Assembly (NCBI GenBank): GCA_016185945.1
Contig: JACPMR010000011.1
Location: 633 to 64,632 of the forward strand
Direction: 5' to 3'
Origin: Candidatus Woesearchaeota archaeon
GTDB taxonomy: Archaea > Nanobdellota > Nanobdellia > Woesearchaeales > GW2011-AR4
DNA: 64,000 bases
Shown one piece after another: positions 7,305-61,476 of the stretch. Within the stretch, counting starts at the first letter, position 1. Each line of letters begins with the position of its first letter. The notes under the pieces were generated by a model. It had not been told where the DNA came from, searched no databases, and saw only the letters and a list, made by a program, of their open reading frames with translations. The translations under genes and the position numbers were made by a program.

Positions 7305-7497
7305 CTGTTATATTTATTTTGCAGTATATAAATTTTTTGGAGGATTTAAGCAGATTGTGTTAAATGGGTTCCATCAAGCGGCATAAACCTTTAACATTTA
7401 GGGATGATATACCAGTATTGGTATACACAATACTGAATACCACCAGACAATAAAACCAGCACAACCTTTTTAAACCACTACTTTTTACGATGTGCGG

Positions 7498-9588: not shown

Positions 9589-10396
9589 CTTTTGATGCCT
9601 TTTCTATTTCTTTTTGAGTATATCCCTCCTTTAAAAGAGTGTCTTTTATTTGCTGCAAGGTAAATCCTTTCCTTATGCTTTCATCAAAATATTGCTTTAA
9701 AGAACTTATTATCTTGTTTTCTTTATTGATTTTCAAAAATAAGAAGATCAATGTGAGAATAACAATGCCGAACATTAAGAATATCCAATTCGGCATGTTT
9801 GGTGGTTGATTTGAAAACCCTGCTCTGTTTTCTGTATTTAATGAACTTATTTCAATCTCCATGACTTTTGAATTTTTTAAATTGTAAATTTCAATCCTGC
9901 CGGCATTATCGCTATGCGGTATATATACTTGATAATTTTTATTTTCCAAAAAGCTATAATAAAATGAATAGATGTCTGAGCCATCAATGGAGACTATCTT
10001 AACTAAATAGCCGGATTTATCAGGATATTCTGCTTTCTCATCGGATTCCATGACTTGGATTTTATTGAATGCGAGAGAGCCGTCATTGTAATTGACATCC
10101 AGCACAAAATATTTTTCAGGATTGCTTACTGCAAAAGCGGTTATTTTTTGTTGTTGATTTTCATCTAAGATTGAGTAAAACGAAAAAATTGAAACAATGA
10201 ATAAAAATGAAATTAAAACAGCATAATTTTTGACAAACTCCAATTCAGCGTGTTTTTTCACTAAAACACCAACATAATCTTCATCGTATCCGTAATCAAC
10301 CAAAACTTTTCTTACAGCATGCTTGGAGTAACCTTTACTTAAATGCTCCTTTATGTACATTTTCAGTTTTTTGTCTATCCTATTTTTGTCCAGCAT
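9581..10396 (-). CDS. Hypothetical membrane protein with a duplicated short alpha-helical GY-containing domain at both termini.
   Basis: N-terminal LSKGYSKHAVRKVLVDYGY and C-terminal IRKGFTLQQIKDTLLKEGYT repeats; 2 TM segments. Confidence 0.35.
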   Translation of the reverse strand: MLDKNRIDKKLKMYIKEHLSKGYSKHAVRKVLVDYGYDEDYVGVLVKKHAELEFVKNYAVLISFLFIVSIFSFYSILDENQQQKITAFAVSNPEKYFVLDVNYNDGSLAFNKIQVMESDEKAEYPDKSGYLVKIVSIDGSDIYSFYYSFLENKNYQVYIPHSDNAGRIEIYNLKNSKVMEIEISSLNTENRAGFSNQPPNMPNWIFLMFGIVILTLIFLFLKINKENKIISSLKQYFDESIRKGFTLQQIKDTLLKEGYTQKEIEKASKAI

Positions 10397-30277: not shown

Positions 30278-32485
30278 CTAAGCACTTAACGTAGCCGTCA
30301 ATATCCTTCCAGCAATTATGTTGAACAATAGCATCACAGCAGCGGATATGAAAACATAGAGTATTGTGCTTCTTATCAAATTGTTTCCAAGTTCAAATCT
30401 CTCGTTCAATTTATCCGAGCCGTTCTCAACGCCATTTGCAATAATAGTCAATATGAAAGTAATTTGCACCACATAAACACCGACTATTAGCTGAAAGTAA
30501 TAGGTTGGGATCCCCTCTCCAAACAAGCCCAGTATACTTGTAGGCGCTGCTGTGTCTGCTCCGCTGACAGACGCTGTGACCTGCTGCAATTGCCCGCTTA
30601 ATTTTCCAAGTATTGCTGTTATCATAGATGTTATTCCAATCACTACCCCTGCAATTGCAGGGGTCAAAAACTTAATCTGGGAGTGCATCGAAGCAATAAT
30701 GTCAGCCATCAAGTCCTTCAATCTTTCATTTACGCGATGAATTTCCTTAATATAACGTGCAACATTTGTCAATGCCTGCGCTGCAATCAATGGTCCTTTC
30801 TTAATCGCCTGCGTCAGGACTTTCATTGAGCTTTCAATCAGATTGCTGGGAAATGAAACCAAAGCGCCATGCATTGGGTCAAAAATCGCCTTTTCGATGC
30901 TCATTCCAAGTCTTCGTATATTCAAGCTTACCAATTGGAAAAAGCTTCCTGATACAGTTCCCTCCATAACATCAGCAACTTTGCCAACTGCTATCTCAAC
31001 AGGAAGATTATCGCCCAGTCTGTTGCCTAGCTGAAACAATGCATTTGCAAACTCAAGCTCAAGCTGCTTTGCCTTTTCCCTTATCTTTATGATGTTCTGC
31101 GATTTAAGCCTGTAATAAAACCCAAGCGCGACTCCCAACCCCAAAGGTATGAACAGGCTTGCAATAGCAGCCCCTAAGCCGTAAGGACCAAGCTCCTGGT
31201 TTGTTGTGGCGCTTGTCCTGTATTCCAAAAAGCAGTACCTCTGCTTGCAGGATGTTGTCAAATCTTCTCCTCCAAAACCAAAATCAGGAACGCCAATTGC
31301 ATGAAATATCAACGGGCTTGCTCCAATTAAAAACAATGCAGCGCAGACAAACACGCTAATAATTGCAGGAGTAACCTGCACTTCTTTTTTTCCGATTTTT
31401 ATCAGTATGTTCCTGTACTTCTTAAGTTCGGGATTTTCTTCTGCAATATCTGTATCTCCATAGCCAGTGGGCCTTGTTGAAAGAATATTCCTTCCCAAAT
31501 AATAAACAACCACAGTCAAAATAACATTGTAAATAACGGCAAGATGGTACCACTTCACGTCTTCCATAAAGCTCACGACAAGCGGCAAAATAACCAAGCC
31601 AAGAATCGGCAGGATAATTCCCAACATGTGCAGCATTGTAATGGGGTTCTGCAAATTGTGGGCGTAGTGCAGCATCTTTTCGTATGTTTCGTCAAGAATA
31701 ACGTCAAGCGCCTTGTCAAGCGCATTCAATCTTCTTGCCTCGTCTCCTTCATACAGAGAGCTTTCAATCAAGTGAAACGCCTCGATGAACTCAATATTCC
31801 ATTTCTTCCATGTATCAAGATAAAAGTCCAGAGACTCTTTTACAGAGGCGTATTTTTCAGTCTCGACATCCCAAAGCACTTTCTTCAAGTCAAGCGACAA
31901 AGGGGGCACAAGATGCTGGCTTGCAAACTCAATTGCCCTTTCAAGATTTGAGGTGTGCCTCATGTATGTAACAACATAAAAGATGCACAGCACCATCTGG
32001 TTGCTTGCCTTCAGGCGCCAGTTGTTGGCGATGAACTCGGGAACTCTTCCTAGAGGCTTTATAAGAATTACGGCACCAATTAAAAACAACAAAACAAAAA
32101 AGATGGATTGGAAAATTAAAAATGCAAGCAAAGAGCTGACTAAAGCCACAGCCAAAGGTATCAAAAGTGAGAATGAAACGGCTCCTGCTGGAGTGATGTT
32201 AAGATGCGTTATGTTGATTGATTCCTGCAAAACATCTGCGGTTTTTTTATCAGGCTTAATCTTAAGGATTTTTTCGCTTAAATTGCAGAGCTTCTCGTAC
32301 AAGCCCATGTGCTTTGGAAGAAATTCAGCCTTGAATTCCTGGTACTCCTTTGTTGTAGGCTGCTCCGGATGGCTTTCAAGCTTCGCTCCCAGCTCTTTCT
32401 CTAGGTGCTTCTTGTAAATCTCCATTAAAGACAACAACTTCTGCTTGTCTATTTCGGATGGCATTGTAGAAAAATTATTTTTCAC
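30278..32485 (-). CDS. Large polytopic membrane protein of the FlaJ/TadC/GspF platform family for archaeal type IV pilus-like machinery.
   Basis: 735 aa with multiple TM clusters separated by cytoplasmic helical domains; adjacent to the FlaI-like ATPase. Confidence 0.55.
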   Translation of the reverse strand: MKNNFSTMPSEIDKQKLLSLMEIYKKHLEKELGAKLESHPEQPTTKEYQEFKAEFLPKHMGLYEKLCNLSEKILKIKPDKKTADVLQESINITHLNITPAGAVSFSLLIPLAVALVSSLLAFLIFQSIFFVLLFLIGAVILIKPLGRVPEFIANNWRLKASNQMVLCIFYVVTYMRHTSNLERAIEFASQHLVPPLSLDLKKVLWDVETEKYASVKESLDFYLDTWKKWNIEFIEAFHLIESSLYEGDEARRLNALDKALDVILDETYEKMLHYAHNLQNPITMLHMLGIILPILGLVILPLVVSFMEDVKWYHLAVIYNVILTVVVYYLGRNILSTRPTGYGDTDIAEENPELKKYRNILIKIGKKEVQVTPAIISVFVCAALFLIGASPLIFHAIGVPDFGFGGEDLTTSCKQRYCFLEYRTSATTNQELGPYGLGAAIASLFIPLGLGVALGFYYRLKSQNIIKIREKAKQLELEFANALFQLGNRLGDNLPVEIAVGKVADVMEGTVSGSFFQLVSLNIRRLGMSIEKAIFDPMHGALVSFPSNLIESSMKVLTQAIKKGPLIAAQALTNVARYIKEIHRVNERLKDLMADIIASMHSQIKFLTPAIAGVVIGITSMITAILGKLSGQLQQVTASVSGADTAAPTSILGLFGEGIPTYYFQLIVGVYVVQITFILTIIANGVENGSDKLNERFELGNNLIRSTILYVFISAAVMLLFNIIAGRILTATLSA

Positions 32486-32526
32486 CTCTTTTTTTGATTT
32501 TATTTGAGTTTCCTAAATTCTAATTT

Positions 32527-32733
32527 TTTAATCCGCCTTCGGCAAAATTTATTGAATTATTTTTTATTTCTTCAATCCGTCGCTGTTGCTTGCGATTGAC
32601 ATGGCGAGTGAGTCTAGTGACATGTGAGCGAGTTCACTTCGCTCACTCGCATGCCACTCGAGCCTCACATGTCACTGCTCGCGTGCATGTCCCACATCAT
32701 GCTTGCAGATGCTGGGAAGCGAAGTTGTTTGAA
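32527..32733. repeat. GC-rich MITE-like element containing a long nested palindrome.
   Basis: TTAATCCGCCTTCGGCAAA ... gacatggcgagtgagtctagtgacatgtgagcgagttcacttcgctcactcgcatgccactcgagcctcacatgtcactg ... GCTTGCAGATGCTGGGAAGCGAAGTTGTTTGAA. Confidence 0.6.
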
Positions 32734-32802
32734 TTAATTTTTTGATTTTGTTTTTTATTGAATTTTTGTTGTTGATTTTAAATATTGTATTTATTTTATT
32801 AA

Positions 32803-35106
32803 TCATAACTTGCTGTGAAAATCCATTTTCTTAACATGCCTTTTCAGCCATTCGTTCCAGTCAAAAAATATCCTTTTTGAGTCGAGAGTTCCAATCTCTT
32901 CCCTTATTTTTTCTGATATTTTATGGAACTGGTCATTGCTTTGTATTACAAAATCAGCTTCAAGAAGCCATGGCATGTTCTGCTTTGTTGCAAAATCGAC
33001 AAGCGCTTGCTTTGTATTAGCCCTAAGCATTACGTTGTCCCATACAGCATCCCAGTTGCCAGCCCATTCTTTTACATTGCCTGCAACTGCCTTAAGTATT
33101 TCAGAGTCGCCATTAATCAATTCCTCGCTTGCCTCTAAAACATCCTTTCTCGAGTCATATTTCATCAAATCAACAAAACCCTTTTCAACCAATGGATCTT
33201 GCTCCCAGTGCTTTCTTACCTCTGTAATTTGAGTGACTCTTCTCCATCTGTGCAGTCCGTCTGCGCTTCTTACGGGATTTGCAACCACAATAACATCAGT
33301 TGCCTTGAAGCTTGTCCTTGGAACTTGCAAATCATTAACAACCCTGTCAAAAACCCCGTATGGTGAATCACCATGAATAGTGCCTGCAACAACATTTGCC
33401 AACGCCCCCACTCTCATTGCCTCGTATAAAGCAAGCGCTTCTTTGCTTCTTATCTCTCCAATTATCAAGGCAGAATCCCCCATCCTTAAAGTTGTCCTTA
33501 TTCCTTCATCTGCTGGCACTTCAGCAGTGCCTTTTGTCAAGGCAGCAGCGACCTTCAGTGACTGAATGTTATAGCCAAGCTTTCTTAACGCAGATGTTGG
33601 TAATTCTAAAGTGTCTTCAATCGTAATCACTCTATACTTCCTCATCAATTCAACCAACACGGCTCCAAGCAAGCTGGTTTTGCCTGCGCTTCTTGTTCCT
33701 GCTATCAAAAGCGTCCTTGAGCCGTCAATCAAAAAGCTCATAATGCCTGCTGCCAATGGATTCATCATCTTGTTTTGTATGAACAAAGGCAATGTCCATG
33801 GCTTGTCTCGATGCCTTCTGAAGGCAAAAGCCAATCCGCTTGGATTCAGAGGAGGAGCAACGACAGCAATTCTTGAATTTGCGCCTGGAATTGCAAGCTC
33901 TGTATCCAAAATTGGATTTGCCTCATCCAATGGCCTGCCAGAAATCAACCTTAACTTAGACGCCCATGACTCTGCTTCTGGGGTCGTAGGTATGATGTTT
34001 GTCTTGCAATCACCATAGTCCTGATGAACTATAAACATGGGAGTTTCTCCAAGAGGCGAGTTTATTGTTATGTCCTGAACCTTTTCATCCTGCAAAAGAA
34101 CCTCTATCAATCCAAATCCGACTGTGTATCTTATAAGGATTTTAGCCATTTCATCGATGTCAGATGAGGACAATCTCAAGTTCCTGTAATTTGCAAGCTC
34201 GCTAATCAAGTCAGAGCCGATGTTATAGAACACCTGCCTCATCCTGTCCGGGTCAATGAATTCCTGTCTTGTCGGCTTGTGCTCTGTCATTATCTTCCTT
34301 GCAGTGTCAAGAATCTCATATTCCTCTTCGCTTAGCTTGAACTCCGGCGGAATCAAATGATACAAATATTGCACATTATCCGGAAGTTCAAATATGGTTA
34401 CTTCTGTATTCTTGTCAAGTGTGTAGCTGTCGATCTCCTCTCCTTCAGGCGGATAAGAAGCCATCAGCTTTGTGAACATAAAGTCAGGCCTTATGTCAGG
34501 AGTGAATATCCTCCTGTAAACACTTCTGTCGCCTAGCTTATATCCGGAGAGATATTGCTTTGCAGCTTCAATCAGCTTTGTTTTTTCCAGCAAGCTCATT
34601 AAGTATTGCAGAACAGCGATGTATTTCTTTGCGCATCCAATGTAATTTTCATCTAATGTCCTGTCAGTCTTCATTCTTTCGTCTCTGATTGTTCTCTTTA
34701 ATTCAACATACGCCCCTATGGGATCCCTTTTTAATAAATCAGAAGTAATATTTTGAGTTGTTGCATACCATTGCGCAGCCCATCTCGTGCATTTTGGGTC
34801 GGCAAGCAGATTGCCATATCCAAATAAGTCCCTTCTTTTTACTAATTGGGCATACAGCTTTGCAACTTCCTGCATCATCGATGTTTGGTTGTAATCATAC
34901 TCGTAATTTCTTTTTTGCGTATAAATAATCTTTGTAATGCCGCTTGTCTCTGCAAGAATATCAATAGTCCTTGACATGCTTACTGGATCATCTTCAAGGG
35001 AGGGTATTTGGGGGTATTGCTCTAAATCAATCATCAAAATTGTTTCCTCGCCTTCTTTTACAATGTCGTAGCTGAATGGTTTTTTTGTCTCGCCGAATAA
35101 TGCCAT
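32803..35106 (-). CDS. FlaI/PilB/VirB11-family secretion or pilus-assembly ATPase with a long N-terminal extension.
   Basis: Walker A IAGTRSAGKTSLLGA; Asp/His-box region ALIIGEIRSKEA. Confidence 0.8.
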   Translation of the reverse strand: MALFGETKKPFSYDIVKEGEETILMIDLEQYPQIPSLEDDPVSMSRTIDILAETSGITKIIYTQKRNYEYDYNQTSMMQEVAKLYAQLVKRRDLFGYGNLLADPKCTRWAAQWYATTQNITSDLLKRDPIGAYVELKRTIRDERMKTDRTLDENYIGCAKKYIAVLQYLMSLLEKTKLIEAAKQYLSGYKLGDRSVYRRIFTPDIRPDFMFTKLMASYPPEGEEIDSYTLDKNTEVTIFELPDNVQYLYHLIPPEFKLSEEEYEILDTARKIMTEHKPTRQEFIDPDRMRQVFYNIGSDLISELANYRNLRLSSSDIDEMAKILIRYTVGFGLIEVLLQDEKVQDITINSPLGETPMFIVHQDYGDCKTNIIPTTPEAESWASKLRLISGRPLDEANPILDTELAIPGANSRIAVVAPPLNPSGLAFAFRRHRDKPWTLPLFIQNKMMNPLAAGIMSFLIDGSRTLLIAGTRSAGKTSLLGAVLVELMRKYRVITIEDTLELPTSALRKLGYNIQSLKVAAALTKGTAEVPADEGIRTTLRMGDSALIIGEIRSKEALALYEAMRVGALANVVAGTIHGDSPYGVFDRVVNDLQVPRTSFKATDVIVVANPVRSADGLHRWRRVTQITEVRKHWEQDPLVEKGFVDLMKYDSRKDVLEASEELINGDSEILKAVAGNVKEWAGNWDAVWDNVMLRANTKQALVDFATKQNMPWLLEADFVIQSNDQFHKISEKIREEIGTLDSKRIFFDWNEWLKRHVKKMDFHSKL

Positions 35107-35385
35107 TATTTCCTTGCCTCTTTTTTTAATGATTCCAAAGCTATTTCTATAAGGTGGGATTTGTTCCTGTATTTCTTAGTTTCATTTACTTCCTTTTCAA
35201 TCCAATCAATCAATTCTTCGTCAATTGTTGCGCTGATTGGTTTTTTCATGAATACCAACTAGATTATAATATATATTTTATATTATTTCCTATAGATTAT
35301 ATTATATTATAATATAAGTGATATTTAAGGTTTGCGGTTTTGGTAAACGATAAAAATTAAAAAGAATCAAAATATACTATTAACT

Positions 35386-36237
35386 ATGCCAAAAACTAAA
35401 ATCTGCGCCATTCAATTTCAAGTATCTCAAAATTTCAATAAAAACATATCAAGAGTAGAGCAATTCTTCAAGAAAGCCAATAAAAATGATTGTGACATTA
35501 TCTGTTTTCCTGAGATATTCCTGACAGGCCCATTAAACAAGGAAAAATACAATCCAAAGGTTCCAGTTCAATCAAAAAAATTGTTTTCTAAATTGTCAAA
35601 AAATTATGGAATGTTTTCTATTATGGGCTCTATAATTGAAAAAATAGACAATAAATTCTGTAATATAAGTTATTTGTTCGACGATAAAGGAAACATTGTT
35701 GGGAACTATAAGAAAAATCATCTTGTCCAAAAATCAGAGGCAAAATATCTGACTGCAGGCAATGAAGTTTCTGTTTTCAAGACAAAAATCGGCAATATTG
35801 GCATTCAGATTTGCAGGGATTTGCTTTATCCTGAAATATCAAGAAAGTTAATGCTAAAAAAAGCAGACATTATATTCTGCCCAAGTTTCTGGAGCGAGAA
35901 ATCCTCTTCCTACGACTGGATTTACAACAACAAGTATTTCAAGACTAAGCCGCCAAGGGAGGTAGATGTTTTAGTTTCAGCACGCGCAATTGAAAGCGAA
36001 GCAGTTTTTGTTTATGCAAACGCAGCAGGTGATTTTATAGGAAATGGAATTAAAGACGAATTGCTCGGAAGAAGCCAGATTGCGCTGCCGTTTTATGGGA
36101 CAACAGATATTTTAAACCGCAACAAAGAAGGTACTTTAATGAAAGAAATCGATTTGAGCATTGTAAAGGACGCAAAAATGGTTTATAAAATTGAGAGGGA
36201 TTTAAAGGATTACTATAAGGGAATTAACAAAGTTTAA
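35386..36237 (+). CDS. Carbon-nitrogen hydrolase (nitrilase superfamily).
   Basis: E-K-C triad context (FPEIFLTG ... K ... QICRDL). Confidence 0.8.
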   Translation: MPKTKICAIQFQVSQNFNKNISRVEQFFKKANKNDCDIICFPEIFLTGPLNKEKYNPKVPVQSKKLFSKLSKNYGMFSIMGSIIEKIDNKFCNISYLFDDKGNIVGNYKKNHLVQKSEAKYLTAGNEVSVFKTKIGNIGIQICRDLLYPEISRKLMLKKADIIFCPSFWSEKSSSYDWIYNNKYFKTKPPREVDVLVSARAIESEAVFVYANAAGDFIGNGIKDELLGRSQIALPFYGTTDILNRNKEGTLMKEIDLSIVKDAKMVYKIERDLKDYYKGINKV

Positions 36238-36380
36238 ATAATCGGTAATAAAAGGTTATTGTATTATTGTTTTTTGAAAAAATAATATTTATTGTAATGC
36301 CTCAATGTCTAAGGCAAGAAGAACTAACATATCAACTAAAGGATAACTTCAAATAAAACGTCATTAAAAAATAAACTAAT

Positions 36381-36462
36381 TTCAATCCGCTCGCTATGCT
36401 CGCAAAAGATAGCGCTCGGCAAAACTTTCCCTTTCAATCAGTTTTGCCTCGCCTATTCATTC
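36381..36462. repeat. Short GC-rich repeat copy (TTCAATCCGC...CGGCAAAAC module).
   Basis: ttcaatccgctcgctatgctcgcaaaagatagcgctcggcaaaac is nearly identical to 61393..61440. Confidence 0.5.
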
Positions 36463-36495
36463 AGTAAAAAATAAAATAATAAACCAAATAATAAA

Positions 36496-36942
36496 ATGCC
36501 AGTTCAAGAATCTACTTTACCACCGCCTCCAAAAAAGAATGAGGGAATTCTTAAATTCGGCAAGCAGCAGCAGCAAGCGCCTGACATAAGCGGAATAACT
36601 GAAGATGTAAGCTCACTGAGCAGGCGATTAAGGCTTCTTGAAGAGGGCTTCACCAATCTTAGAAGATTTTTTCAGGTTACAGAACAAAACGTGATTGCAA
36701 AAAACAAGCATTTCTCTGCCGAGATTAAAACAATAAATTCTGACATCATGGAGATAAGAAAGGAAATGCAAGAAATCAGGGACAAATTGATGCTTGTAAT
36801 AAGGGAGCTGCAAACAGTTGCAAGAAAAGAGGAAGTAAAAGTTCTTGAAAAGTATATAAACCTCTGGAATCCAATCAGGTTTGTAACGCAAAACGAGGTT
36901 GAGCAGATAATAAACGAAGTTCTTGAGAAAAAGCAGCAATAG
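36496..36942 (+). CDS. Coiled-coil hypothetical protein.
   Basis: Heptad-rich sequence; no enzymatic motif. Confidence 0.3.
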   Translation: MPVQESTLPPPPKKNEGILKFGKQQQQAPDISGITEDVSSLSRRLRLLEEGFTNLRRFFQVTEQNVIAKNKHFSAEIKTINSDIMEIRKEMQEIRDKLMLVIRELQTVARKEEVKVLEKYINLWNPIRFVTQNEVEQIINEVLEKKQQ

Positions 36943-36994
36943 AAAGCTTTAAATATATTCATTTAAAGTAGAACCTCAAAAGAGAGGTGTACTG

Positions 36995-37699
36995 ATGGTG
37001 TTCTTTAAATTTGGAAAGAAGAAGAGAGAAGAGCCATTAGATATGCCAATGCCCGAGATACAGCCGATGCAACCTCCAACTTCAGCGTCTCCTATCGAGC
37101 AAGTTCTTATGATGAAGCAGCAGGGCTACACAAATAATCAGATTGTGCAAGCCCTTCAAGGACAGGGTTTTAACACTTCTCAAATCTATGATGCAATAAA
37201 TCAAGCTGAATTAAGCGGTGGCTTTGGAGCAACTCCTCTGCCCCAGCAAGAGCAGATGGATATGGGCATGCAGGATTATGGGCAGGGCTACGAGCAACCT
37301 TCTTATCAGCAGCAGTCATTCCAGAGTGTTCAGCCGCCGAAAGAAACACAACCTGCTTCAGTAGATGAGGAAAGGATACAAGAAGTCGTTGAAGCGATTG
37401 TTGACGAGAAATGGGACGAGCTTGTAAAGGACATAAGAAAAGTAATTGAATGGAAGGACAGAAGCGAAGAAAGGCTGGCAAAGCTTGAGCAGCAAATCAT
37501 AGATATGCGCCTGAGCATTGACTCATTAACCAAGAGTGTGATGACAAAAATTTCTTCTTACGACCAGAACATTGTTGATGTGGGCACAGAAATCAAGGCA
37601 ATGGAAAAGGTATTCCAGAAAGTTCTGCCTTCTTTGACTGAAAGCGTCAATAAATTGGACAGGATGACTAAAGTAAGTAAAGAGCCGGTAAAGAAATAA
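36995..37699 (+). CDS. Hypothetical protein with an N-terminal UBA-like helical domain, a Q/E-rich linker and a C-terminal coiled coil.
   Basis: IEQVLMMKQQGYTNNQIVQALQGQGFNTSQIYDAINQA fits a UBA-like pattern. Confidence 0.3.
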   Translation: MVFFKFGKKKREEPLDMPMPEIQPMQPPTSASPIEQVLMMKQQGYTNNQIVQALQGQGFNTSQIYDAINQAELSGGFGATPLPQQEQMDMGMQDYGQGYEQPSYQQQSFQSVQPPKETQPASVDEERIQEVVEAIVDEKWDELVKDIRKVIEWKDRSEERLAKLEQQIIDMRLSIDSLTKSVMTKISSYDQNIVDVGTEIKAMEKVFQKVLPSLTESVNKLDRMTKVSKEPVKK

Positions 37700-37700
37700 G

Positions 37701-38225
37701 CTAACTTCTCCCAGCCAATAAAGCAATTGTAAAAACAGCTATTGCCAAAACTAGAACTGCTCCAAGGAATGTGGGATGAAAGATAAGGTTTACAGTTTTT
37801 GAAAGATCTGTCTGGGTTTCAGATATGTTAACACTCTCCCTAAACTTAACCCCTGCTGCAACGACAAGAATAATAAGAATAAATACCAAAAACACCCCCT
37901 TAAGTGCAGGAAATCCTTCTATGTCGCCGCCAAGCATCTGGGTTGCAACTGACACAAAGATAACGAACATAAACACAAGAGCTATGAAAGGAGCAGTACT
38001 TGCTATAATGTCTGTTGCAACCGGGCTTATCAGCACAAATATAGCAAGCAGCAACCCAACAAGAGTATGTACGAACTTATTGTCGCCAAAAACTTTTACC
38101 CATGACATGACAGCAAAAACTGCAAGCCACACAAACAAAAACACGAAAATGCTTGAGAAATGCTGCAGTCCTGTCACATCAAGAAATGTTGCCATCTTAT
38201 TTTTAATATGACTATTTCTTCCCAA
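37701..38225 (-). CDS. Membrane protein, member 3 of a tandem paralog triplet.
   Basis: Shares N-terminal ...F(L/D)DV(T/V)(L/M)...FLL(V/I)F...VF architecture and about 4 TM with the two upstream genes. Confidence 0.4.
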   Translation of the reverse strand: MGRNSHIKNKMATFLDVTGLQHFSSIFVFLFVWLAVFAVMSWVKVFGDNKFVHTLVGLLLAIFVLISPVATDIIASTAPFIALVFMFVIFVSVATQMLGGDIEGFPALKGVFLVFILIILVVAAGVKFRESVNISETQTDLSKTVNLIFHPTFLGAVLVLAIAVFTIALLAGRS

Positions 38226-38814
38226 ATAGCTTGCTAAAGTCCATGCCCAGTCTGTTGAGTATTGTCTTTGTCTCTGCTTCCTTTGAATCGCCTGTAACCC
38301 ATGCTATGATTATGCCAAAAGTCAGAAGCATGATGAATATAGCCACTCCGTCTGTGCCAAAAAAGTTCTCCAAAGTTTGTCCAAATCCGCTGTCCCACCA
38401 GCCTGCTGCCCCTCCAAATATTATTAAAATAACTGCAAAGGACACAAAGGAAATCCAGGCAGGCATTGTCATTCCTAGGAACACATAATCCTGTCCGAAT
38501 ACTCCAATCATTACAAGCAGGAAAACAATCGCTACAAGCACTATTGATACTTGAGGCAAGGCATTGTTTATTATCAAAACAGGATCCGCATTTTCAGGGA
38601 ATCTCCCAGTAACATGGGGTATAACAACAAGCAAAGCAACAACTATAGCCACAACTGCATTTAGGTTTTTCTTATCCTCGCCCAATATTTTTGTTTTTGT
38701 TAATATGGCGTAAACAATAACAAAAATTAGAAGGAATGGCAGCATAACATCTGTCAAGCCCCAGCTCTCCAAAACTCTGACAAAACCCTCGAGCTTGAAC
38801 GCCTCTACAGCCAT
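38212..38814 (-). CDS. Membrane protein, member 2 of a tandem paralog triplet.
   Basis: MAVEAFKLEGFVRVLESWGLTDVMLPFLLIFVIVYAILTKTKILGEDKKNLNAVVAIVVALLVV is paralogous to 38870..39430. Confidence 0.4.
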   Translation of the reverse strand: MAVEAFKLEGFVRVLESWGLTDVMLPFLLIFVIVYAILTKTKILGEDKKNLNAVVAIVVALLVVIPHVTGRFPENADPVLIINNALPQVSIVLVAIVFLLVMIGVFGQDYVFLGMTMPAWISFVSFAVILIIFGGAAGWWDSGFGQTLENFFGTDGVAIFIMLLTFGIIIAWVTGDSKEAETKTILNRLGMDFSKLFGKK

Positions 38815-38869
38815 TTTTGCACCTCTTTAGCTTTTTATTTAAACCATTAGTATATAAATTTTATGCAAA

Positions 38870-39430
38870 TTACGAATGCTTTGCTTCTTTTGATGGCTCT
38901 TTCATAGCGTAAACGACAAAAAAGACTATCAATGCCAGCAAAACGATAGAGCCTACCACTTCATCGCTGCCTGATCCTGCAAAATCTCCTAATCTTTCAA
39001 GCCATGTCCTTCCATCAGGGCCTTTTATGGCATCAAGGAAAATGCCGACTATTGCTATAAACACAATTATCATGAAGACAACCTTCCAACCGCCTTGAAG
39101 GTATATTGGTTCTCCTTCCTTGTGGAAAGAGCCAACCAAAAGCAAAAACAAGACCGACAAAAACAACACAATAACCGCGTTTGCTGATACCTTGGTTATT
39201 ATCTCAACAAGCTGCGAAGAGGCAACAACAAGGAATGCAATGACAAAAGAGGCGATTGCATTAAGGTTCTTTTTTGTATATTTCTTGCCATCAATATCTT
39301 CTGTGCCTAGAACCCTTGTCTTTTCGAATATTGCAAAAACAATTGTGAAAACAAGCAGAAATGGCAGTACAACATCAAATAATCCTATGCTGTCAAAGAA
39401 TTCCAGCACTTGCCTGAAAGGAGTAGCCAT
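38870..39430 (-). CDS. Membrane protein, member 1 of a tandem paralog triplet.
   Basis: MATPFRQVLEFFDSIGLFDVVLPFLLVFTIVFAIFEKTRVLGTEDIDGKKYTKKNLNAIASFVIAFLVV. Confidence 0.4.
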   Translation of the reverse strand: MATPFRQVLEFFDSIGLFDVVLPFLLVFTIVFAIFEKTRVLGTEDIDGKKYTKKNLNAIASFVIAFLVVASSQLVEIITKVSANAVIVLFLSVLFLLLVGSFHKEGEPIYLQGGWKVVFMIIVFIAIVGIFLDAIKGPDGRTWLERLGDFAGSGSDEVVGSIVLLALIVFFVVYAMKEPSKEAKHS

Positions 39431-40508: not shown

Positions 40509-42743
40509 ATGAAAAGAACCCAGACTTGCGGAGAATTGACAGATAAAGACGTTAACAAAAAAGTAACTTTATGCGGATGGTGCTCGACAAGAAGAGACCA
40601 TGGCGGGGTTATTTTTATCGACTTGAGAGACAGGTATGGAATAACGCAAGTAGTTTTTGATCCTTCTTTTAATCTTGAAGCGCATAAAATTGCTGAAAAA
40701 TTAGGCAGGGAAGATGTGATTCAAGTAAAAGGCATTGTAAAGCACAGAAAAAAGGGCATGGAAAATCCAAAGCTTAAAACAGGCGCTGTTGAAGTTTTTG
40801 TTGAGAAAATAGAAATTTTGAGCGAGTCAGAAGCCCCTCCAATGGAAATTGATGACAGGATTCTTACAAGCGAAGACACGCGCTTGAAGTACAGATATCT
40901 TGACTTGAGAAAGCCGGGAATGCAGCACAACATAATAACAAGGCACAAATTTGTCAAAGCTGTCAGGGATTATTTTGACAGCCTGGATTTTGTTGAAATT
41001 GAAACTCCTATTCTTGCAAAAAGCACTCCTGAAGGCGCTAGAGATTATCTTGTGCCGTCTAGAATTCATGCTGGAAAGTTTTATGCTCTGCCCCAAAGCC
41101 CTCAGATATTCAAGCAGCTTTTGATGGTCTCTGGCTTTGACAGGTACTTTCAGATTGCAAGATGCTTCAGAGATGAGGATTTAAGGGCTGACAGGCAGCC
41201 GGAATTCACTCAGATAGATGTAGAAATGAGCTTCGTTGAGGAAGATGATATAATGGAAATTGTTGAAGGCATGCTCAAGCACGTCTGGAGAATTTTGTTG
41301 AACAAAGACTTAAAAACGCCATTTCCAAAAATAACCTACAATGAGGCAATCAGCAAATATGGCTTGGACAAGCCCGATACAAGGTTTGAGCTTCATCTTG
41401 TTGATGTAACCGATGTTGTCAAAAACTCGAATTTTGAGGTTTTTACAAAGGCAATAAAGCAAAAAGGAATTGTAAAGTGCATAAATGCAAAGGGCTGCGC
41501 AAGCTTCAGCAGGACTGTTATAGAGGAATTGACAAGCTTTGTTGCAATTTATGGTTCAAAAGGGCTTGCATGGATGAAAGTTACAGAAAAAGGGCTTGAA
41601 AGCTCTATTGTGAAATTCTTTGACGAGAAAATACAAAAGGAATTGCTCAAGGCAGCAAATGCTAAGAAAGATGACTTGTTATTTTTTGTTGCTGACTCAA
41701 GCCATAAAGTTGTAAACGATTCACTTGGTTATTTAAGAATTGAGATTGCCAAAAGATTGAATCTTATTGACAATAATCACTTTAGTTTTGTGTGGGTTAC
41801 TGACTTTCCATTGGTTGATTGGAGCGAAGAAGAGCAGAAATATGTTGCAGTTCATCATCCTTTCACAAGCCCAAAAGACGAAGATATAGGGCTGCTTGAT
41901 AAATCTCCGGAAAAGGCAAGGGCAAAGGCATATGATATTGTTTTGAACGGCACTGAAATCGGAGGCGGCTCTATAAGAATCCATAGAAGCAATATCCAGT
42001 CAAAGATGTTTTCTGTCTTGGGTTTAAGCAAGGAAGAGGCAGAGCAGAAATTTGGATTCTTGCTCGAGGCATTCAAGTATGGCACTCCGCCTCATGGAGG
42101 CATTGCCTTGGGAGTTGACAGGATTGTTGCTATGATAACTGGAAATGAATCAATAAGAGAAGTAATTGCCTTTCCAAAGAACAAGGCAGCAGAGTCATTA
42201 ATGGATGAGGCGCCAAGTGCAGTAAGCGAGAAGCAATTAGAGGAATTACATATCAAGTTTGATTTTGTAAAAGAGCAAGTAAATGTTGTGTTCGGCAAGA
42301 TAAGGGATGTCTTGAACAAGGAAAAGATTGAGCATGAAGTGCTTGAGCACAAGCCAGTTTATACGAGTAAAGAAGCAGCTCAAGTAAGAGGCACAGAGCT
42401 GAAGCAGGGCTGCAAGGCACTAATTTGCAAGACAGAAGAGGGATTTATCCAAGCAGTTGTCTCTGGTGCAAAGGAGCTTGACATTGGAAAATTGCAGAAA
42501 CTGACTTTGTACAAGAAAATCGAGCTGGCAAATGCAAAGGAAGTAAGGCAGGCAACTGGATGCAACATTGGCTCTGTGCCGCCGTTTGGAAATTTGTTTA
42601 ATTTAAAAACTTACTTTGATAAGTCAGTTGTTGAGAATGATATAATTGCATTTAATGCAGGCACGCATACAAGAAGCATCAAGATGAAAGCGAAGGATTT
42701 GATTAAGGTTGTTAATCCTGTGGTTGGGGAGTTTGGTAAGTGA
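40509..42743 (+). CDS. aspS: Bacterial-type aspartyl-tRNA synthetase (with GAD insertion) fused to a C-terminal YbaK/ProX-type aminoacyl-tRNA deacylase domain.
   Basis: Class II motifs and the anticodon-binding OB fold (residues about 1-590). The C-terminal 150 aa align to YbaK. Confidence 0.85.
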   Translation: MKRTQTCGELTDKDVNKKVTLCGWCSTRRDHGGVIFIDLRDRYGITQVVFDPSFNLEAHKIAEKLGREDVIQVKGIVKHRKKGMENPKLKTGAVEVFVEKIEILSESEAPPMEIDDRILTSEDTRLKYRYLDLRKPGMQHNIITRHKFVKAVRDYFDSLDFVEIETPILAKSTPEGARDYLVPSRIHAGKFYALPQSPQIFKQLLMVSGFDRYFQIARCFRDEDLRADRQPEFTQIDVEMSFVEEDDIMEIVEGMLKHVWRILLNKDLKTPFPKITYNEAISKYGLDKPDTRFELHLVDVTDVVKNSNFEVFTKAIKQKGIVKCINAKGCASFSRTVIEELTSFVAIYGSKGLAWMKVTEKGLESSIVKFFDEKIQKELLKAANAKKDDLLFFVADSSHKVVNDSLGYLRIEIAKRLNLIDNNHFSFVWVTDFPLVDWSEEEQKYVAVHHPFTSPKDEDIGLLDKSPEKARAKAYDIVLNGTEIGGGSIRIHRSNIQSKMFSVLGLSKEEAEQKFGFLLEAFKYGTPPHGGIALGVDRIVAMITGNESIREVIAFPKNKAAESLMDEAPSAVSEKQLEELHIKFDFVKEQVNVVFGKIRDVLNKEKIEHEVLEHKPVYTSKEAAQVRGTELKQGCKALICKTEEGFIQAVVSGAKELDIGKLQKLTLYKKIELANAKEVRQATGCNIGSVPPFGNLFNLKTYFDKSVVENDIIAFNAGTHTRSIKMKAKDLIKVVNPVVGEFGK

Positions 42744-42797: not shown

Positions 42798-43358
42798 ATG
42801 ATTGATAAAATACCTTATTTAGGAGATTCTTGGTTAGGCAAATTAATAGCTTATATAGTTTTGGTCTTCATTTATTATTTTTTATGGATGGCTCTAACAA
42901 TGATTTTGCTAAACAAAACTACCAAACACGCCTATTTGTATGGTGAATTATCTGTAGCCAAGAAGTCTGCAAGGGGATTAGTAATGCTATTTTTAATATT
43001 CGGATTTAATATGGCGATGTATGCTGTAGGATTATATAAACCTCCAACTGATGTAACCTTTTTATTCTTATTGAGCATGTTGTTTACATTCATGATAATG
43101 TCTATGATTGATATAATGGGTAAGAAATTCTCTGGAGGCGAAGAATTTTATGACACTATTATCACTTTTATCCTAACAGTAGGTTTCCTATCACCTTCAG
43201 CTGGATTATTAACTCTAGGACTTTTTGATAAATTATACCTCTTAGGTGGATTACTGGTTAATTCTTTTTTATTCACATTCAAATTTGTTAATGATTGGGC
43301 TGGAAATATTACTAGTAAAGTGATAAACTATATGGCACGCAATATAAAAATAAAATGA
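42798..43358 (+). CDS. Hypothetical polytopic membrane protein.
   Basis: Hydrophobic profile only. Confidence 0.3.
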   Translation: MIDKIPYLGDSWLGKLIAYIVLVFIYYFLWMALTMILLNKTTKHAYLYGELSVAKKSARGLVMLFLIFGFNMAMYAVGLYKPPTDVTFLFLLSMLFTFMIMSMIDIMGKKFSGGEEFYDTIITFILTVGFLSPSAGLLTLGLFDKLYLLGGLLVNSFLFTFKFVNDWAGNITSKVINYMARNIKIK

Positions 43359-49226: not shown

Positions 49227-49382
49227 ATAAAAACTTTTTGATATGGTGGATATAACCTATGCTTACTTCAAGATAATTCTTATACTGAGGGCGTCCCGTT
49301 CACTTCATGGAAGCGCAGTGGTCTCCAATTGTTTTTTTGAGATTTTATTTATGTAATAAGCACATTTCAATAATATATAAAT

Positions 49383-49614
49383 TTCAATCACGAGGCGACC
49401 CATCGACACAACCAAGTGAGTGACTTGTGAGCGAGTTCGCTGTTGCTTGCGAGAAAAGCTCGCAAACTCGCTTTTCAGGTCGAACGAAGCTCACTCGCAT
49501 GCCACTGGGTGCCCCGCAATAACAGAGGCACTTAAATGCAGCGATAAAGTGCAACATAAGAGGCTGTGGCTCCCTTATCACTAGGACATTGACAGGGAAG
49601 CCTTGGGGATTGAA
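49383..49614. repeat. Composite GC-rich repeat: TTCAATC terminus, GCGACCCA, a nested GAGCGAG palindrome, the GGGTGCCCCGCA element and a GGGGATTGAA terminus.
   Basis: Termini TTCAATCACG ... CCTTGGGGATTGAA form an imperfect terminal inverted repeat. Internal modules are shared with 30040.., 56655.. and 32590.. Confidence 0.6.
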
Positions 49615-61104: not shown

Positions 61105-61240
61105 TTTATTTTTTTGTTTGCTGTCTGGAAATTATATTATTGAAATGGCTTATTGTCAAAGCCAAGAAGCACTAAGAGGATTATAGTAAAGGCAACAAAT
61201 AATTGAGCATAAATTATTGCCTTTACTTGTCAAAAATCAG

Positions 61241-61476
61241 TCGAATGGTGAGCGAGGCGAACCTCGCATGTCACTGATTTTTGTCCAGTGACATGCGAGA
61301 GCTCGCTGTTGCTTGCGAGAACGCTCGCAAGCTCGCGTTCATATCTCGCTCGCTCAACTCTATAAGCATGAAATGCATTCTATAAACTAAAATTCAATCC
61401 GCTCGCTACGCTCGCATAAAATAGTGCTCGGCAAAAATTCTTCTGTCATTGAATTTTGCCTCGACTGTTTATTGAA
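61241..61476. repeat. Two adjacent GC-rich repeat units: a nested palindrome (61241..61370) and a TTCAATCCGC...CGGCAAAAA unit (61393..61476).
   Basis: tcagtgacatgcgag/ctcgcatgtcactga inverted repeats. Second unit nearly identical to 36381..36462. Confidence 0.55.

What the first reader, a model, noticed from the sequence alone, without database searches (positions are those of the whole stretch)
30278..39430. Type IV pilus/archaellum-like ATPase and platform locus with three tandem paralogous membrane proteins and coiled-coil/UBA-like partners
A FlaI/PilB-type ATPase (767 aa, long N-terminal extension) and a very large FlaJ/TadC-type platform protein (735 aa) are adjacent. No class-III-signal pilin is recognisable nearby. 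Instead, 4 kb away there are three tandem, clearly paralogous roughly 175 to 200-aa membrane proteins with a conserved F(L/D)DV(T/V)(L/M)PFLL(V/I)F N-terminus (37701..39430), plus two coiled-coil proteins, one with a UBA-like N-terminal domain. In DPANN-type archaea such machinery is thought to mediate cell-cell or host attachment. The paralog triplet could be a non-canonical filament or anchor component.
Basis: inference. Interest (0 to 1): 0.55.

Follow-up and report, generated by a model that had tools for sequence, protein, structure and literature searches.

The report
Woesearchaeal pilus-type motor with unknown partners
A groundwater Woesearchaeota genome carries a divergent type-IV-pilus-type ATPase and membrane platform next to a conserved five-gene set of unknown function (three related five-helix membrane proteins plus two probable coiled-coil proteins); these three are integral membrane proteins, not pilus subunits, and whether they work with the motor is open.

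Summary
The window comes from a Candidatus Woesearchaeota MAG (locus tags HYX02_).
- The 767-aa protein is a GspE/CpaF/FlaI-type ATPase with all four motifs.
- The 728/735-aa protein is a very divergent GspF/PilC/TadC-type platform. It is recognisable only by the fold of its cytoplasmic domain and by weak T2SSF hits in relatives.
- The three membrane proteins are true paralogues (hhalign E 1e-16 to 1e-33).
- No class-III-signal pilin lies in the window or in almost any of 88 related loci.

- Each triplet protein has five predicted transmembrane helices in an N-out/C-in orientation and an acidic N-terminus. They are not filament subunits.
- Across 80 species-level loci, the triplet sits next to the two coiled-coil genes in 62 of 68 informative loci (91%).
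- The ATPase is adjacent in 38 of 59 informative loci (64%). That is no better than the unrelated housekeeping neighbour translin (66%).
- ATPase adjacency looks ancestral. The coiled-coil pair stays with either module when the block breaks.

**Best reading:** a pilus-type assembly core with pilins encoded elsewhere, plus a lineage-specific membrane and coiled-coil module that may be its accessory scaffold.

**Novelty and interest:** all proteins except the ATPase are unannotated. Novelty is a new variant of a known kind. Interest is moderate.

The parts
30278..32464 (-). Polytopic membrane 'platform' protein, 728 aa from the ATG at 32464 (735 aa from the GTG at 32485). It is a very divergent GspF/PilC/TadC/FlaJ-type protein with an extra N-terminal helical region. 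It also has a beta-rich loop (about residues 350-430, presumed extracellular) with two Cys that are invariant among close relatives.
   Evidence: - Foldseek matches to EpsF, OutF, PilC and SpoIIIAB cytoplasmic domains: probability 0.97-1.00, TM-score 0.61-0.68, on an AF2 model of pLDDT 66.
- Weak Pfam T2SSF hits in 8 of 21 relatives.
- Always downstream of the ATPase on the same strand, 33 of 33 loci.
- 4059 homologues, none with a Pfam domain.
32803..35106 (-). Secretion-superfamily (GspE/CpaF/FlaI-type) hexameric ATPase, 767 aa, with N-terminal (about 230-300 aa) and C-terminal (about 130 aa) extensions.
   Evidence: - Pfam T2SSE above cut-off.
- NCBIfam TadA and FlaI hits at 1e-34, far below the equivalog cut-offs.
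- PDB 2oap at 1e-29, CpaF at 3e-23, FlaI at 3e-16.
- All four ATPase motifs present.
35106..35258 (-). Small (50 aa) ribbon-helix-helix protein overlapping the ATPase start. Probable transcriptional regulator of the ATPase-platform operon.
   Evidence: - Pfam RHH_1 E 0.0024.
- PHROG Arc-like repressor.
- tblastn 63-83% identity directly upstream of the ATPase in 20 related loci and in L001 and L005.
36496..36942 (+). 148-aa soluble helical, probably coiled-coil protein (CC148). It has an N-terminal Pro/Lys stretch, an 'FG' motif, and a highly conserved C-terminal 'KYxxxWxPxxFVT' motif. It is weakly related to Pfam DUF6674.
   Evidence: - Alignment A7.
- DUF6674 hits in 9 of 32 relatives, best E 1.9e-6, and as a precomputed hit in two homologues.
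- Adjacent to the triplet in 62 of 80 loci.
36995..37699 (+). 234-aa soluble protein (UBA-CC). In order it has an N-terminal 'FxFGKKK' motif, a small UBA-like helical domain, a Pro/Gln-rich linker of variable length, and a conserved C-terminal helical domain of about 110 aa.
   Evidence: - Alignment A6.
- Only sub-threshold Pfam hits: DUF7626 in 16 of 34, UBA in 4 of 34, DUF7310 in 7 of 34.
- Present next to the triplet in 65 of 80 loci.
- Not homologous to CC148.
37701..38195 (-). par3: third paralogue, 164 aa from the ATG at 38195 (the listed TTG start at 38225 overlaps par2). Five predicted TM helices. The most divergent member.
   Evidence: - hhalign against par1 99.1% and against par2 98.6%.
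- Orthologues are 164-170 aa and start 'MATFLD'.
- Found in 69 of 80 loci.
38212..38814 (-). par2: second paralogue, 200 aa, five predicted TM helices. It has an inserted loop between TM2 and TM3 (predicted outside) with an invariant 'PH...D...P' motif.
   Evidence: - hhalign against par1 99.9%, E 3.7e-33.
- Alignment A9 invariant residues P65, H66, D76, P86.
- Found in 80 of 80 loci.
38870..39430 (-). par1: first paralogue, 186 aa, five predicted TM helices, predicted N-out/C-in. The best conserved member, 44-88% identity across species.
   Evidence: - 1816 homologues, all 'hypothetical', from Woesearchaeota and Nanoarchaeota.
- 1908 representatives of 50%-identity clusters match a profile of the triplet family (par1 relatives plus par2 and par3).
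- Topology.
- AF2 pLDDT 72 with no PDB fold match.

Best explanation
**(1) The core: shown or well supported.** The RHH gene, the 767-aa ATPase and the 728-aa polytopic protein form the core of a divergent archaeal type-IV-filament (pilus-type) assembly machine. A hexameric GspE/CpaF/FlaI-type ATPase docks on the GspF-fold cytoplasmic domains of the platform. It most likely assembles class-III-signal subunits that are encoded elsewhere in the genome. This is not an archaellum operon.

**(2) The triplet: shown.** The three tandem genes are paralogous integral membrane proteins. Each has five predicted TM helices with the N-terminus outside and the C-terminus inside. They are not filament subunits.

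**(3) The five-gene module: shown.** The triplet and the two soluble, probably coiled-coil proteins form a five-gene module. It is conserved across Woesearchaeota more tightly than background gene order.

**(4) The link between module and core: inferred.**
- The three paralogues probably form a hetero-oligomeric membrane complex.
- The two coiled-coil proteins probably attach to its cytoplasmic face. Both carry an N-terminal basic 'FG-KK' peptide.
- Together they would act as a lineage-specific scaffold or anchor around the ATPase-platform core.
- That role would be analogous, not homologous, to FlaX/FlaCDE in archaella or to PilMNO and GspLM in bacterial machines.
For: **ATPase and platform identity:**

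**Triplet paralogy and topology:**

**Module conservation.**
- The coiled-coil pair is next to the triplet in 62 of 68 informative loci, drawn from 80 species-level genomes with par1 identity of 44-88%.

**Link to the ATPase.**
- The order triplet> <UBA-CC <CC148 | >ATPase >platform is found in all deep branches of the par1+par2 tree and in the 1.3-Mb contig L087. It is therefore probably ancestral.
- In the most divergent lineages CC148 and the ATPase are divergently transcribed only 29-225 bp apart, which implies a shared promoter region.
- When the block breaks, the coiled-coil pair stays with the triplet in many loci. It stays with the ATPase in the H14 MAG. In L053 the block from UBA-CC to the platform is inverted as one unit.
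- Both modules are retained in MAGs where they are unlinked: AABX33, CMO83, HYS31.

**Pilins in trans are usual in archaea.**
- Makarova 2016 (PMC4858521) reports ATPases of subclade 4F in 'nanoarchaea' without identifiable cognate pilins, and a coiled-coil protein in haloarchaeal 4F loci.
- Woesearchaeota MAGs commonly encode flaB-type proteins and FlaK elsewhere (PMC11606122).
Against: - ATPase adjacency (38 of 59, 64%) is no higher than that of the unrelated neighbour translin (48 of 73, 66%). Inherited synteny alone could explain it.
- The triplet and the coiled-coil operon are convergent, with a median of 32 bp between their stop codons. Little neutral space exists for breakpoints, which inflates the 91% figure.
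- No component of the five-gene module has detectable homology or fold similarity to any known pilus, archaellum or secretion accessory protein.
- The platform model has low confidence (pLDDT 66), and no internal T2SSF duplication was detected.
- Pilins and a prepilin peptidase were not shown to exist in this genome. None was found in the pilin scans of the window or among the ten candidate window proteins run against Pfam.
Confidence: 0.45

Rival explanations
1. The five-gene module (triplet plus two coiled-coil proteins) is a self-contained membrane-associated system unrelated to the pilus-type motor. It could be a membrane-bound cytoskeletal or scaffold complex, or an envelope or membrane-remodelling complex. 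It lies beside the ATPase only because of ancient gene order retained in small, slowly rearranging genomes.
For: - ATPase retention equals translin retention, 64% against 66%.
- The AspRS-translin-triplet-CC-ATPase-platform-OB-fold order is retained as one long syntenic block in several lineages.
- Seventeen of 51 loci with at least 3 kb beyond CC148 have no ATPase.
- L001 has RHH-ATPase-platform with no module gene within 10 kb.
- The modules lie on different large contigs in CMO83 and HYS31.
- No homology to known pilus accessory proteins.
Against: - ATPase adjacency is present in every deep clade.
- The CC148 and ATPase starts are 29-225 bp apart in divergent lineages.
- The coiled-coil pair travels with the ATPase in the H14 MAG and L053.
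Confidence: 0.38
2. The triplet forms a small-solute or ion channel or transporter, with three paralogous five-TM subunits. The coiled-coil proteins would be its cytoplasmic regulators.
For: - Polytopic topology.
- Conserved polar residues in or near the membrane: Asp at the start of TM1 in par1 and par2, and an invariant His/Asp loop in par2.
- Tandem paralogues are common in hetero-oligomeric channels (background knowledge).
Against: - No match to any transporter family in Pfam, NCBIfam or PDB folds.
- The AF2 model shows no pore-like feature that could be assessed.
Confidence: 0.1
3. One reading: the triplet proteins are non-canonical filament (pilin-like) subunits assembled by the ATPase and platform.
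For: - No canonical pilin nearby.
- An invariant Gly-Leu precedes the first hydrophobic helix in all three paralogues.
- A weak NCBIfam hit of par1 to a pilin-like conjugal protein, E 0.042 and 13.5 bits against a cut-off of 40.
Against: - Five TM helices per protein.
- The positive-inside rule places the N-terminus outside, the opposite of class-III signal peptides.
- The leader is acidic, with I, W or T rather than K or R at position -2.
- There is no globular extracellular domain.
Confidence: 0.03
4. The locus is a degenerate archaellum (FlaI/FlaJ) operon.
For: - NCBIfam FlaI model E 6e-34.
- Three CC148 relatives hit FlaC_arch weakly.
- Woesearchaeota MAGs are often annotated with fla genes (PMC11606122).
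Against: - The FlaI equivalog score is 118 bits against a cut-off of 550.
- afGspE and CpaF match better than FlaI.
- No FlaH, FlaF, FlaG or archaellin was seen in the genes examined in the window or in the called genes of the related loci that were inspected.
Confidence: 0.04

Closest known systems
Archaeal type IV pilus assembly cores (PilB/PilC of Haloferax, AapE/AapF and UpsE/UpsF of Sulfolobales; arCOG01817-19 ATPases with TadC-like proteins, Makarova et al. 2016)
   Same: - An adjacent, co-oriented secretion-superfamily ATPase and polytopic GspF-fold membrane protein.
- Pilins are often encoded elsewhere.
- Small transcription regulators are often associated with these loci.
   Different: - The ATPase is larger, with N- and C-terminal extensions (767 aa).
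- The platform is 728 aa and is not recognised by Pfam T2SSF.
- No pilin or Peptidase_A24 was found in the pilin scans of the window or the ten window proteins run against Pfam.
- It is flanked by a five-gene module with no counterpart in described systems.
Subclade 4F euryarchaeal pilus systems with the intracellular coiled-coil protein arCOG07564 (Makarova et al. 2016, PMC4858521)
   Same: - An ATPase and TadC pair with an intracellular coiled-coil accessory protein.
- The paper notes that ATPases of this subclade occur in 'nanoarchaea' whose cognate pilins could not be found.
   Different: - Whether this ATPase belongs to subclade 4F was not tested.
- Homology of CC148 or UBA-CC to arCOG07564 was not tested.
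- The N-terminal extension here is not cysteine-rich.
- No three-paralogue membrane set is described for 4F.
Archaellum motor (FlaI/FlaJ with FlaH, FlaX or FlaC/D/E, FlaF/FlaG)
   Same: - An ATPase and platform core.
- If the module is an accessory, it would include cytoplasmic coiled-coil proteins and membrane anchors, analogous to FlaX/FlaCDE and FlaF/G.
   Different: - No FlaH, FlaF, FlaG or archaellins.
- The FlaI equivalog cut-off is missed by a wide margin.
- The accessory proteins show no detectable homology.
Bacterial Tad/Flp pilus (CpaF with TadB/TadC) and the T2SS/T4P alignment subcomplexes (GspL/M, PilM/N/O)
   Same: - The ATPase matches CpaF at E 3e-23.
- The platform cytoplasmic domain matches the EpsF, OutF and PilC folds.
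- These systems also use coiled-coil membrane-associated accessory proteins.
   Different: - The accessory proteins here are soluble coiled-coil proteins plus five-TM proteins, not bitopic proteins.
- There are no secretin, TadZ or pseudopilin genes.
Pfam DUF6674 (uncharacterised family)
   Same: Nine of 32 CC148 relatives match, best E 1.9e-6. Two database homologues carry the precomputed hit.
   Different: - The window protein itself does not reach E 0.05.
- The family has no known function, so it adds no mechanism.

Membership tests
Secretion-superfamily ATPase (GspE/PilB/CpaF/FlaI/VirB11; Pfam T2SSE) | Pfam T2SSE match above the gathering score | tested here: met
   52.4 bits against a cut-off of 24.9, residues 412-607
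Secretion-superfamily ATPase (GspE/PilB/CpaF/FlaI/VirB11; Pfam T2SSE) | Walker A, Asp box, Walker B and His box all present | tested here: met
   GTRSAGKT at 470-477, VITIEDTLEL at 493-502, ALIIGEIR at 546-553, TIHG at 576-579
Secretion-superfamily ATPase (GspE/PilB/CpaF/FlaI/VirB11; Pfam T2SSE) | Full-length similarity, N-terminal domain included, to solved archaeal or bacterial members | tested here: met
   2oap residues 38-421 align to query residues 231-638 at E 1e-29. CpaF gives 3e-23 and FlaI 3e-16
Archaellum ATPase FlaI (NCBIfam NF058587 equivalog) | Score above the equivalog cut-off | tested here: not met
   117.7 bits against a cut-off of 550
Archaellum ATPase FlaI (NCBIfam NF058587 equivalog) | Operon context with FlaH, FlaF, FlaG and archaellins | tested here: not met
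   None seen in the genes examined in the window or in the called genes of the related loci that were inspected
GspF/PilC/TadC/FlaJ platform protein (Pfam T2SSF) | Sequence match to T2SSF | tested here: inconclusive
   The window protein has no hit. Eight of 21 relatives hit weakly, best E 0.008
GspF/PilC/TadC/FlaJ platform protein (Pfam T2SSF) | Helical cytoplasmic domain with the GspF fold | tested here: met
   Foldseek probability 0.97-1.00 and TM-score 0.61-0.68 to 3c1q, 2vma, 2vmb (EpsF), 5nbg (OutF), 2whn (PilC) and 6bs9 (SpoIIIAB). The model pLDDT is only 66
GspF/PilC/TadC/FlaJ platform protein (Pfam T2SSF) | Two tandem T2SSF repeats | tested here: inconclusive
   hhalign of the N-half against the C-half is not significant. 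Only a short 'LIESS' motif aligns at analogous positions
GspF/PilC/TadC/FlaJ platform protein (Pfam T2SSF) | Encoded directly next to the cognate ATPase | tested here: met
   Same strand and downstream in 33 of 33 loci. The gap is at most 363 bp in 30 of them
Type IV pilin / archaellin (class III signal peptide), for the triplet | Short basic leader with a [KR][GA] cleavage site before the hydrophobic helix | tested here: not met
   The leaders are net acidic or neutral. Position -2 is I, W or T
Type IV pilin / archaellin (class III signal peptide), for the triplet | A single N-terminal TM helix (N-in) followed by an extracellular globular domain | tested here: not met
   Five TM helices. The K/R-rich loop after TM1 and the K/R-rich C-terminus predict N-out/C-in. 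The AF2 model is almost entirely helical, with one short beta-hairpin in the loop after TM1
T4SS pilin (VirB2/TrbC; NF045849 Mbov_0395), for par1 | Match above the curated cut-off | tested here: not met
   13.5 bits against a cut-off of 40, E 0.042
MotA/ExbB/TolQ-type stator, for the triplet | Pfam MotA_ExbB or PADLOC ZorA match in the membrane proteins | tested here: not met
   No hit for par1, par2 or par3. The only ZorA hits are coiled-coil-level matches to UBA-CC and the platform
UBA domain, for the N-terminus of the 234-aa protein | Pfam UBA match above the gathering score | tested here: inconclusive
   E 0.066 and 13.5 bits against a cut-off of 22.4. Four of 34 relatives match UBA and 16 of 34 match DUF7626, all sub-threshold
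Subclade 4F secretion ATPases (Makarova 2016) | Phylogenetic placement within subclade 4F | not tested
This is a literature lead only

The most novel reading that the evidence does not exclude
The eight genes encode one previously undescribed apparatus of the type-IV-filament superfamily, specific to Woesearchaeota and their relatives. In it, a FlaI/TadC-type motor is coupled through two coiled-coil adaptors to a heterotrimeric five-TM membrane complex. It would work without conventional pilins, for example as a cell-to-cell contact or transfer device of these host-dependent archaea.
Probability: 0.12. Interest if true: 0.8.

Novelty: new variant of a known kind. Interest (0 to 1): 0.48.

Why it matters
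**Biological context.** Woesearchaeota are abundant, uncultured, small-genome archaea thought to depend on partner cells. How they attach to or exchange material with partners is unknown.

**What stands out.**
- This ATPase-platform pair is about as conserved as housekeeping genes. The ATPase is 55-88% identical where AspRS is 54-87%.
- In several lineages the ATPase even hosts inteins.
- The platform and all five neighbouring proteins are annotated 'hypothetical'.

**If the five-gene module is part of the machine.** It would define a new accessory architecture for archaeal type-IV-filament systems. It would also give concrete targets for cryo-ET, pull-downs and multimer modelling in the study of DPANN surface machinery.

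**If the module is independent.** It is still a large family with no known function or fold, conserved across this order. About 1900 representatives of 50%-identity clusters match a profile of the triplet family.

Tried and rejected
- **Platform by sequence.** PDB sequence and profile searches found nothing. A test for an internal repeat was negative.
- **Coiled-coil proteins.** Profile searches against the PDB and per-member Pfam scans gave only generic coiled-coil matches. The two proteins are not homologous to each other.
- **Defence and phage libraries.** Nothing meaningful was found.
- **A fourth paralogue.** The 186-aa five-TM protein at 42798-43358 is not a par paralogue.
- **Heptad score.** My crude heptad score did not separate coiled-coil proteins from controls. 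It carries little weight.
- **Pilins and prepilin peptidase.** A FlaFind-like scan of the window and 88 loci found one pilin-like ORF (L067:7708-8082) and one doubtful signal-anchor-like ORF in L087. No Peptidase_A24 was found among the window's membrane proteins that were checked.
- **Adjacency as proof of function.** I first read the 80-locus neighbourhood as strong evidence for a link to the ATPase. The translin control and the very short gap between the par3 and UBA-CC stop codons made me downgrade it.

Full report
**Source and gene map.** The window belongs to a Candidatus Woesearchaeota MAG. par1 is 100% identical to HYX02_04905 on a 71.9-kb contig. The region 30278-39430 holds nine genes:

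| Gene | Coordinates | Strand | Size |
|---|---|---|---|
| platform | 30278-32464/32485 | - | 728/735 aa |
| ATPase | 32803-35106 | - | 767 aa |
| ribbon-helix-helix (RHH) | 35106-35258 | - | 50 aa |
| CN hydrolase | 35386-36237 | + | 283 aa |
| CC148 | 36496-36942 | + | 148 aa |
| UBA-CC | 36995-37699 | + | 234 aa |
| par3 | 37701-38195 | - | 164 aa |
| par2 | 38212-38814 | - | 200 aa |
| par1 | 38870-39430 | - | 186 aa |

Translin and an AspRS follow. No tRNA or Rfam family lies in the window.

**ATPase.**
- Pfam T2SSE is above its cut-off.
- The NCBIfam TadA and FlaI models hit at 1e-34 but far below their equivalog cut-offs.
- The best solved relatives are Archaeoglobus GspE (2oap, 1e-29), CpaF (3e-23) and FlaI (3e-16).
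- The alignments start at residues 231-324 and end near 640. Both an N-terminal and a C-terminal extension are therefore real.
- Walker A, Asp box, Walker B and His box are all intact.
- It is a bona fide secretion-superfamily ATPase, but not an archaellum FlaI by NCBI's criterion.

**Platform.**
- The window protein has no Pfam, NCBIfam or PDB sequence match, even when searched with a 21-sequence profile.
- None of the listed homologues (best 120 of 4059) carries a precomputed Pfam domain, and those that a source names are called 'hypothetical'.
- An AF2 model of modest confidence (pLDDT 66) matches the cytoplasmic helical domains of EpsF, OutF, PilC and SpoIIIAB. Foldseek probability is 0.97-1.00 and target TM-score is 0.61-0.68.
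- Eight of 21 relatives give weak T2SSF hits.
- The gene follows the ATPase on the same strand in 33 of 33 loci.
- I accept it as a very divergent GspF/TadC/FlaJ-type platform. An internal duplication could not be shown.

**Triplet.**
- par1 against par2 is clear by BLASTP (4e-11). par3 is marginal.
- Profiles built from 22-30 orthologues each give hhalign probabilities of 99.9, 99.1 and 98.6%. The paralogy is certain.
- Each protein has five hydrophobic helices.
- The loop after TM1 and the C-terminus are rich in K and R, while the N-terminal peptide and the loop between TM4 and TM5 are acidic. This predicts N-out/C-in.
- That orientation is the opposite of a class-III-signal pilin. There is no [KR][GA] site, and in par3 the conserved 'FLDVTGL' starts at residue 4.
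- The AF2 model of par1 (pLDDT 72) has no meaningful PDB fold match.
- A profile of the triplet family (par1 relatives plus par2 and par3) finds 1908 representatives of 50%-identity clusters at E up to 1e-3. The 150 listed are mostly about 190 aa, and the named ones come from Woesearchaeota or Nanoarchaeota.

**Coiled-coil proteins.**
- CC148 and UBA-CC are soluble, helical and not homologous to each other.
- UBA-CC has an N-terminal 'FxFGKKK' motif, a small UBA-like domain supported only by sub-threshold hits, a variable Pro/Gln-rich linker, and a conserved C-terminal helical domain of about 110 aa.
- CC148 has an N-terminal Pro/Lys stretch with an 'FG' motif. Its C-terminal 'KYxxxWxPxxFVT' motif is nearly invariant.
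- CC148 relatives weakly match Pfam DUF6674.
- All other matches are generic coiled-coil similarities.

**Neighbourhood.** A scan of one genome per GTDB species with a par1 profile returned 80 loci, with par1 identity of 44-88%.

| Neighbour of par1 | Loci with a tblastn hit, of 80 |
|---|---|
| par2 | 80 |
| par3 | 69 |
| UBA-CC | 65 |
| CC148 | 62 |
| translin | 48 |
| ATPase | 38 |
| AspRS | 35 |
| platform | 33 |
| CN hydrolase | 9 |

- The order par1> par2> par3> <UBA-CC <CC148 | (RHH)> ATPase> platform> is conserved.
- The CN hydrolase is an insertion specific to the window's clade.
- A more distant member on a 1.3-Mb contig (L087) has the same order.

Counting only loci with enough flanking sequence:

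| Gene set next to the triplet | Informative loci with it | Share |
|---|---|---|
| coiled-coil pair | 62 of 68 | 91% |
| ATPase | 38 of 59 | 64% |
| translin (unrelated control) | 48 of 73 | 66% |

- On a par1+par2 tree, ATPase adjacency occurs in every deep clade and is lost in at least five subclades. It is probably ancestral, but no better kept than background synteny.
- The par3 and UBA-CC stop codons are a median of 32 bp apart. This leaves little room for breakpoints and inflates the 91%.

Points in favour of a link to the ATPase:
- In the divergent lineages the CC148 and ATPase starts lie only 29-225 bp apart.
- The coiled-coil pair stays with the ATPase in the H14 MAG, and in L053 the whole block from UBA-CC to the platform is inverted as a unit.
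- Both modules persist where they are unlinked.

Points against:
- L001 has RHH-ATPase-platform alone.
- Seventeen of 51 loci have the module without an ATPase within at least 3 kb.

**Pilins.**
- A FlaFind-like scan found no candidate in the window.
- Among the 88 related loci it found one pilin-like ORF, in L067, and one doubtful signal-anchor-like ORF, in L087.
- No Peptidase_A24 was found among the window's membrane proteins that were checked.
- The literature shows that archaeal ATPase/TadC pairs often use pilins encoded elsewhere. It also reports that 'nanoarchaeal' relatives of subclade 4F ATPases lack identifiable cognate pilins (PMC4858521).
- Woesearchaeota MAGs commonly carry flaB-type genes and flaK (PMC11606122).

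**Conclusion.**
- The ATPase and platform are the core of a divergent pilus-type machine.
- The triplet is a set of paralogous five-TM membrane proteins, not filament subunits.
- The triplet and the two coiled-coil proteins form a conserved five-gene module of unknown function.
- That this module is an accessory scaffold of the ATPase-platform core is my preferred reading (confidence about 0.45). It is barely ahead of the rival that the module is independent and merely syntenic (about 0.38).
- Novelty is a new variant of a known kind. Interest is moderate.

Noticed in passing
window 35106-35258 (-): A 50-aa ribbon-helix-helix ORF overlaps the ATPase start codon. It is conserved upstream of the ATPase in 20 related loci, but absent where CC148 and the ATPase lie less than 230 bp apart.
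   Followed up: partly
window 35386-36237 (+): The CN-hydrolase gene between the coiled-coil operon and the RHH-ATPase operon is present in only 9 of 80 related loci. It is a lineage-specific insertion into the divergent promoter region, not part of the conserved set.
   Followed up: yes
window 32590-32715; also about 49380-49480 and 61225-61340: A GC-rich palindromic element lies in the 318-bp gap between ATPase and platform. Its RNA fold energy is -61 kcal/mol, z -3.0. Related copies sit in two other intergenic regions. It may be a small repeated hairpin element or a terminator. There is no Rfam match.
   Followed up: partly
L007:15091-18903, L043:13247-17056, L058:4140-7955, L062:13489-17310: ATPase orthologues of about 1270 aa. 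Pfam shows an intein with a LAGLIDADG homing endonuclease inserted in the ATPase domain in L007, L043 and L062 (L058 was not scanned). The window's copy has none.
   Followed up: partly
L005:9075-9927 and L087:14904-15650: The gap between ATPase and platform is an insertion hot spot. It holds a two-gene insert, one of them a nucleotidyltransferase (Polbeta), in the H14 MAG and an inositol-monophosphatase-family gene in L087.
   Followed up: no
window 7492-9588 (+), codon 7939-7941: The methionyl-tRNA synthetase is interrupted by one in-frame TGA exactly where a conserved Gly (GGA) is expected ('DRYVK*KCPKC'). TGA ends 21 of 56 window genes, so this is probably a sequencing error or a nonsense allele rather than recoding.
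   Followed up: partly
window 40509-42743 (+): The aspartyl-tRNA synthetase (bacterial type, with a GAD domain) carries a C-terminal YbaK/tRNA_edit-like domain, for a total of 744 aa. The orthologue in L003 has the same four Pfam domains. Shorter AspRS genes of about 591-596 aa occur in other relatives, and the L087 copy lacks the tRNA_edit domain.
   Followed up: no
window 9581-10396 (-): A 271-aa protein with two TM helices has an N-terminal 'GYSKHAVRKVLVDYGYDEDYV' motif. The motif resembles the UBA-like domain of the 234-aa coiled-coil protein. No Pfam match.
   Followed up: no
P0242 (365 aa, one 5.3-kb metagenome contig): A single protein joins a par1-like half and a par2-like half. It is either a real fusion, which would support a par1-par2 complex, or an assembly or frameshift artefact.
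   Followed up: no
L067:7708-8082 (+): The only convincing class-III-signal (pilin-like) ORF near any of the 88 loci ('MVGKKG|MFKTLEALIALF...'). It lies 2.5 kb from a par1-par2 pair that lacks par3, the coiled-coil genes and the ATPase.
   Followed up: no
L003:11419-14687: In the H14 relative the cysteinyl-tRNA synthetase appears split into two ORFs (229 and 270 aa). A HAD hydrolase gene and a 392-aa gene lie between them.
   Followed up: no
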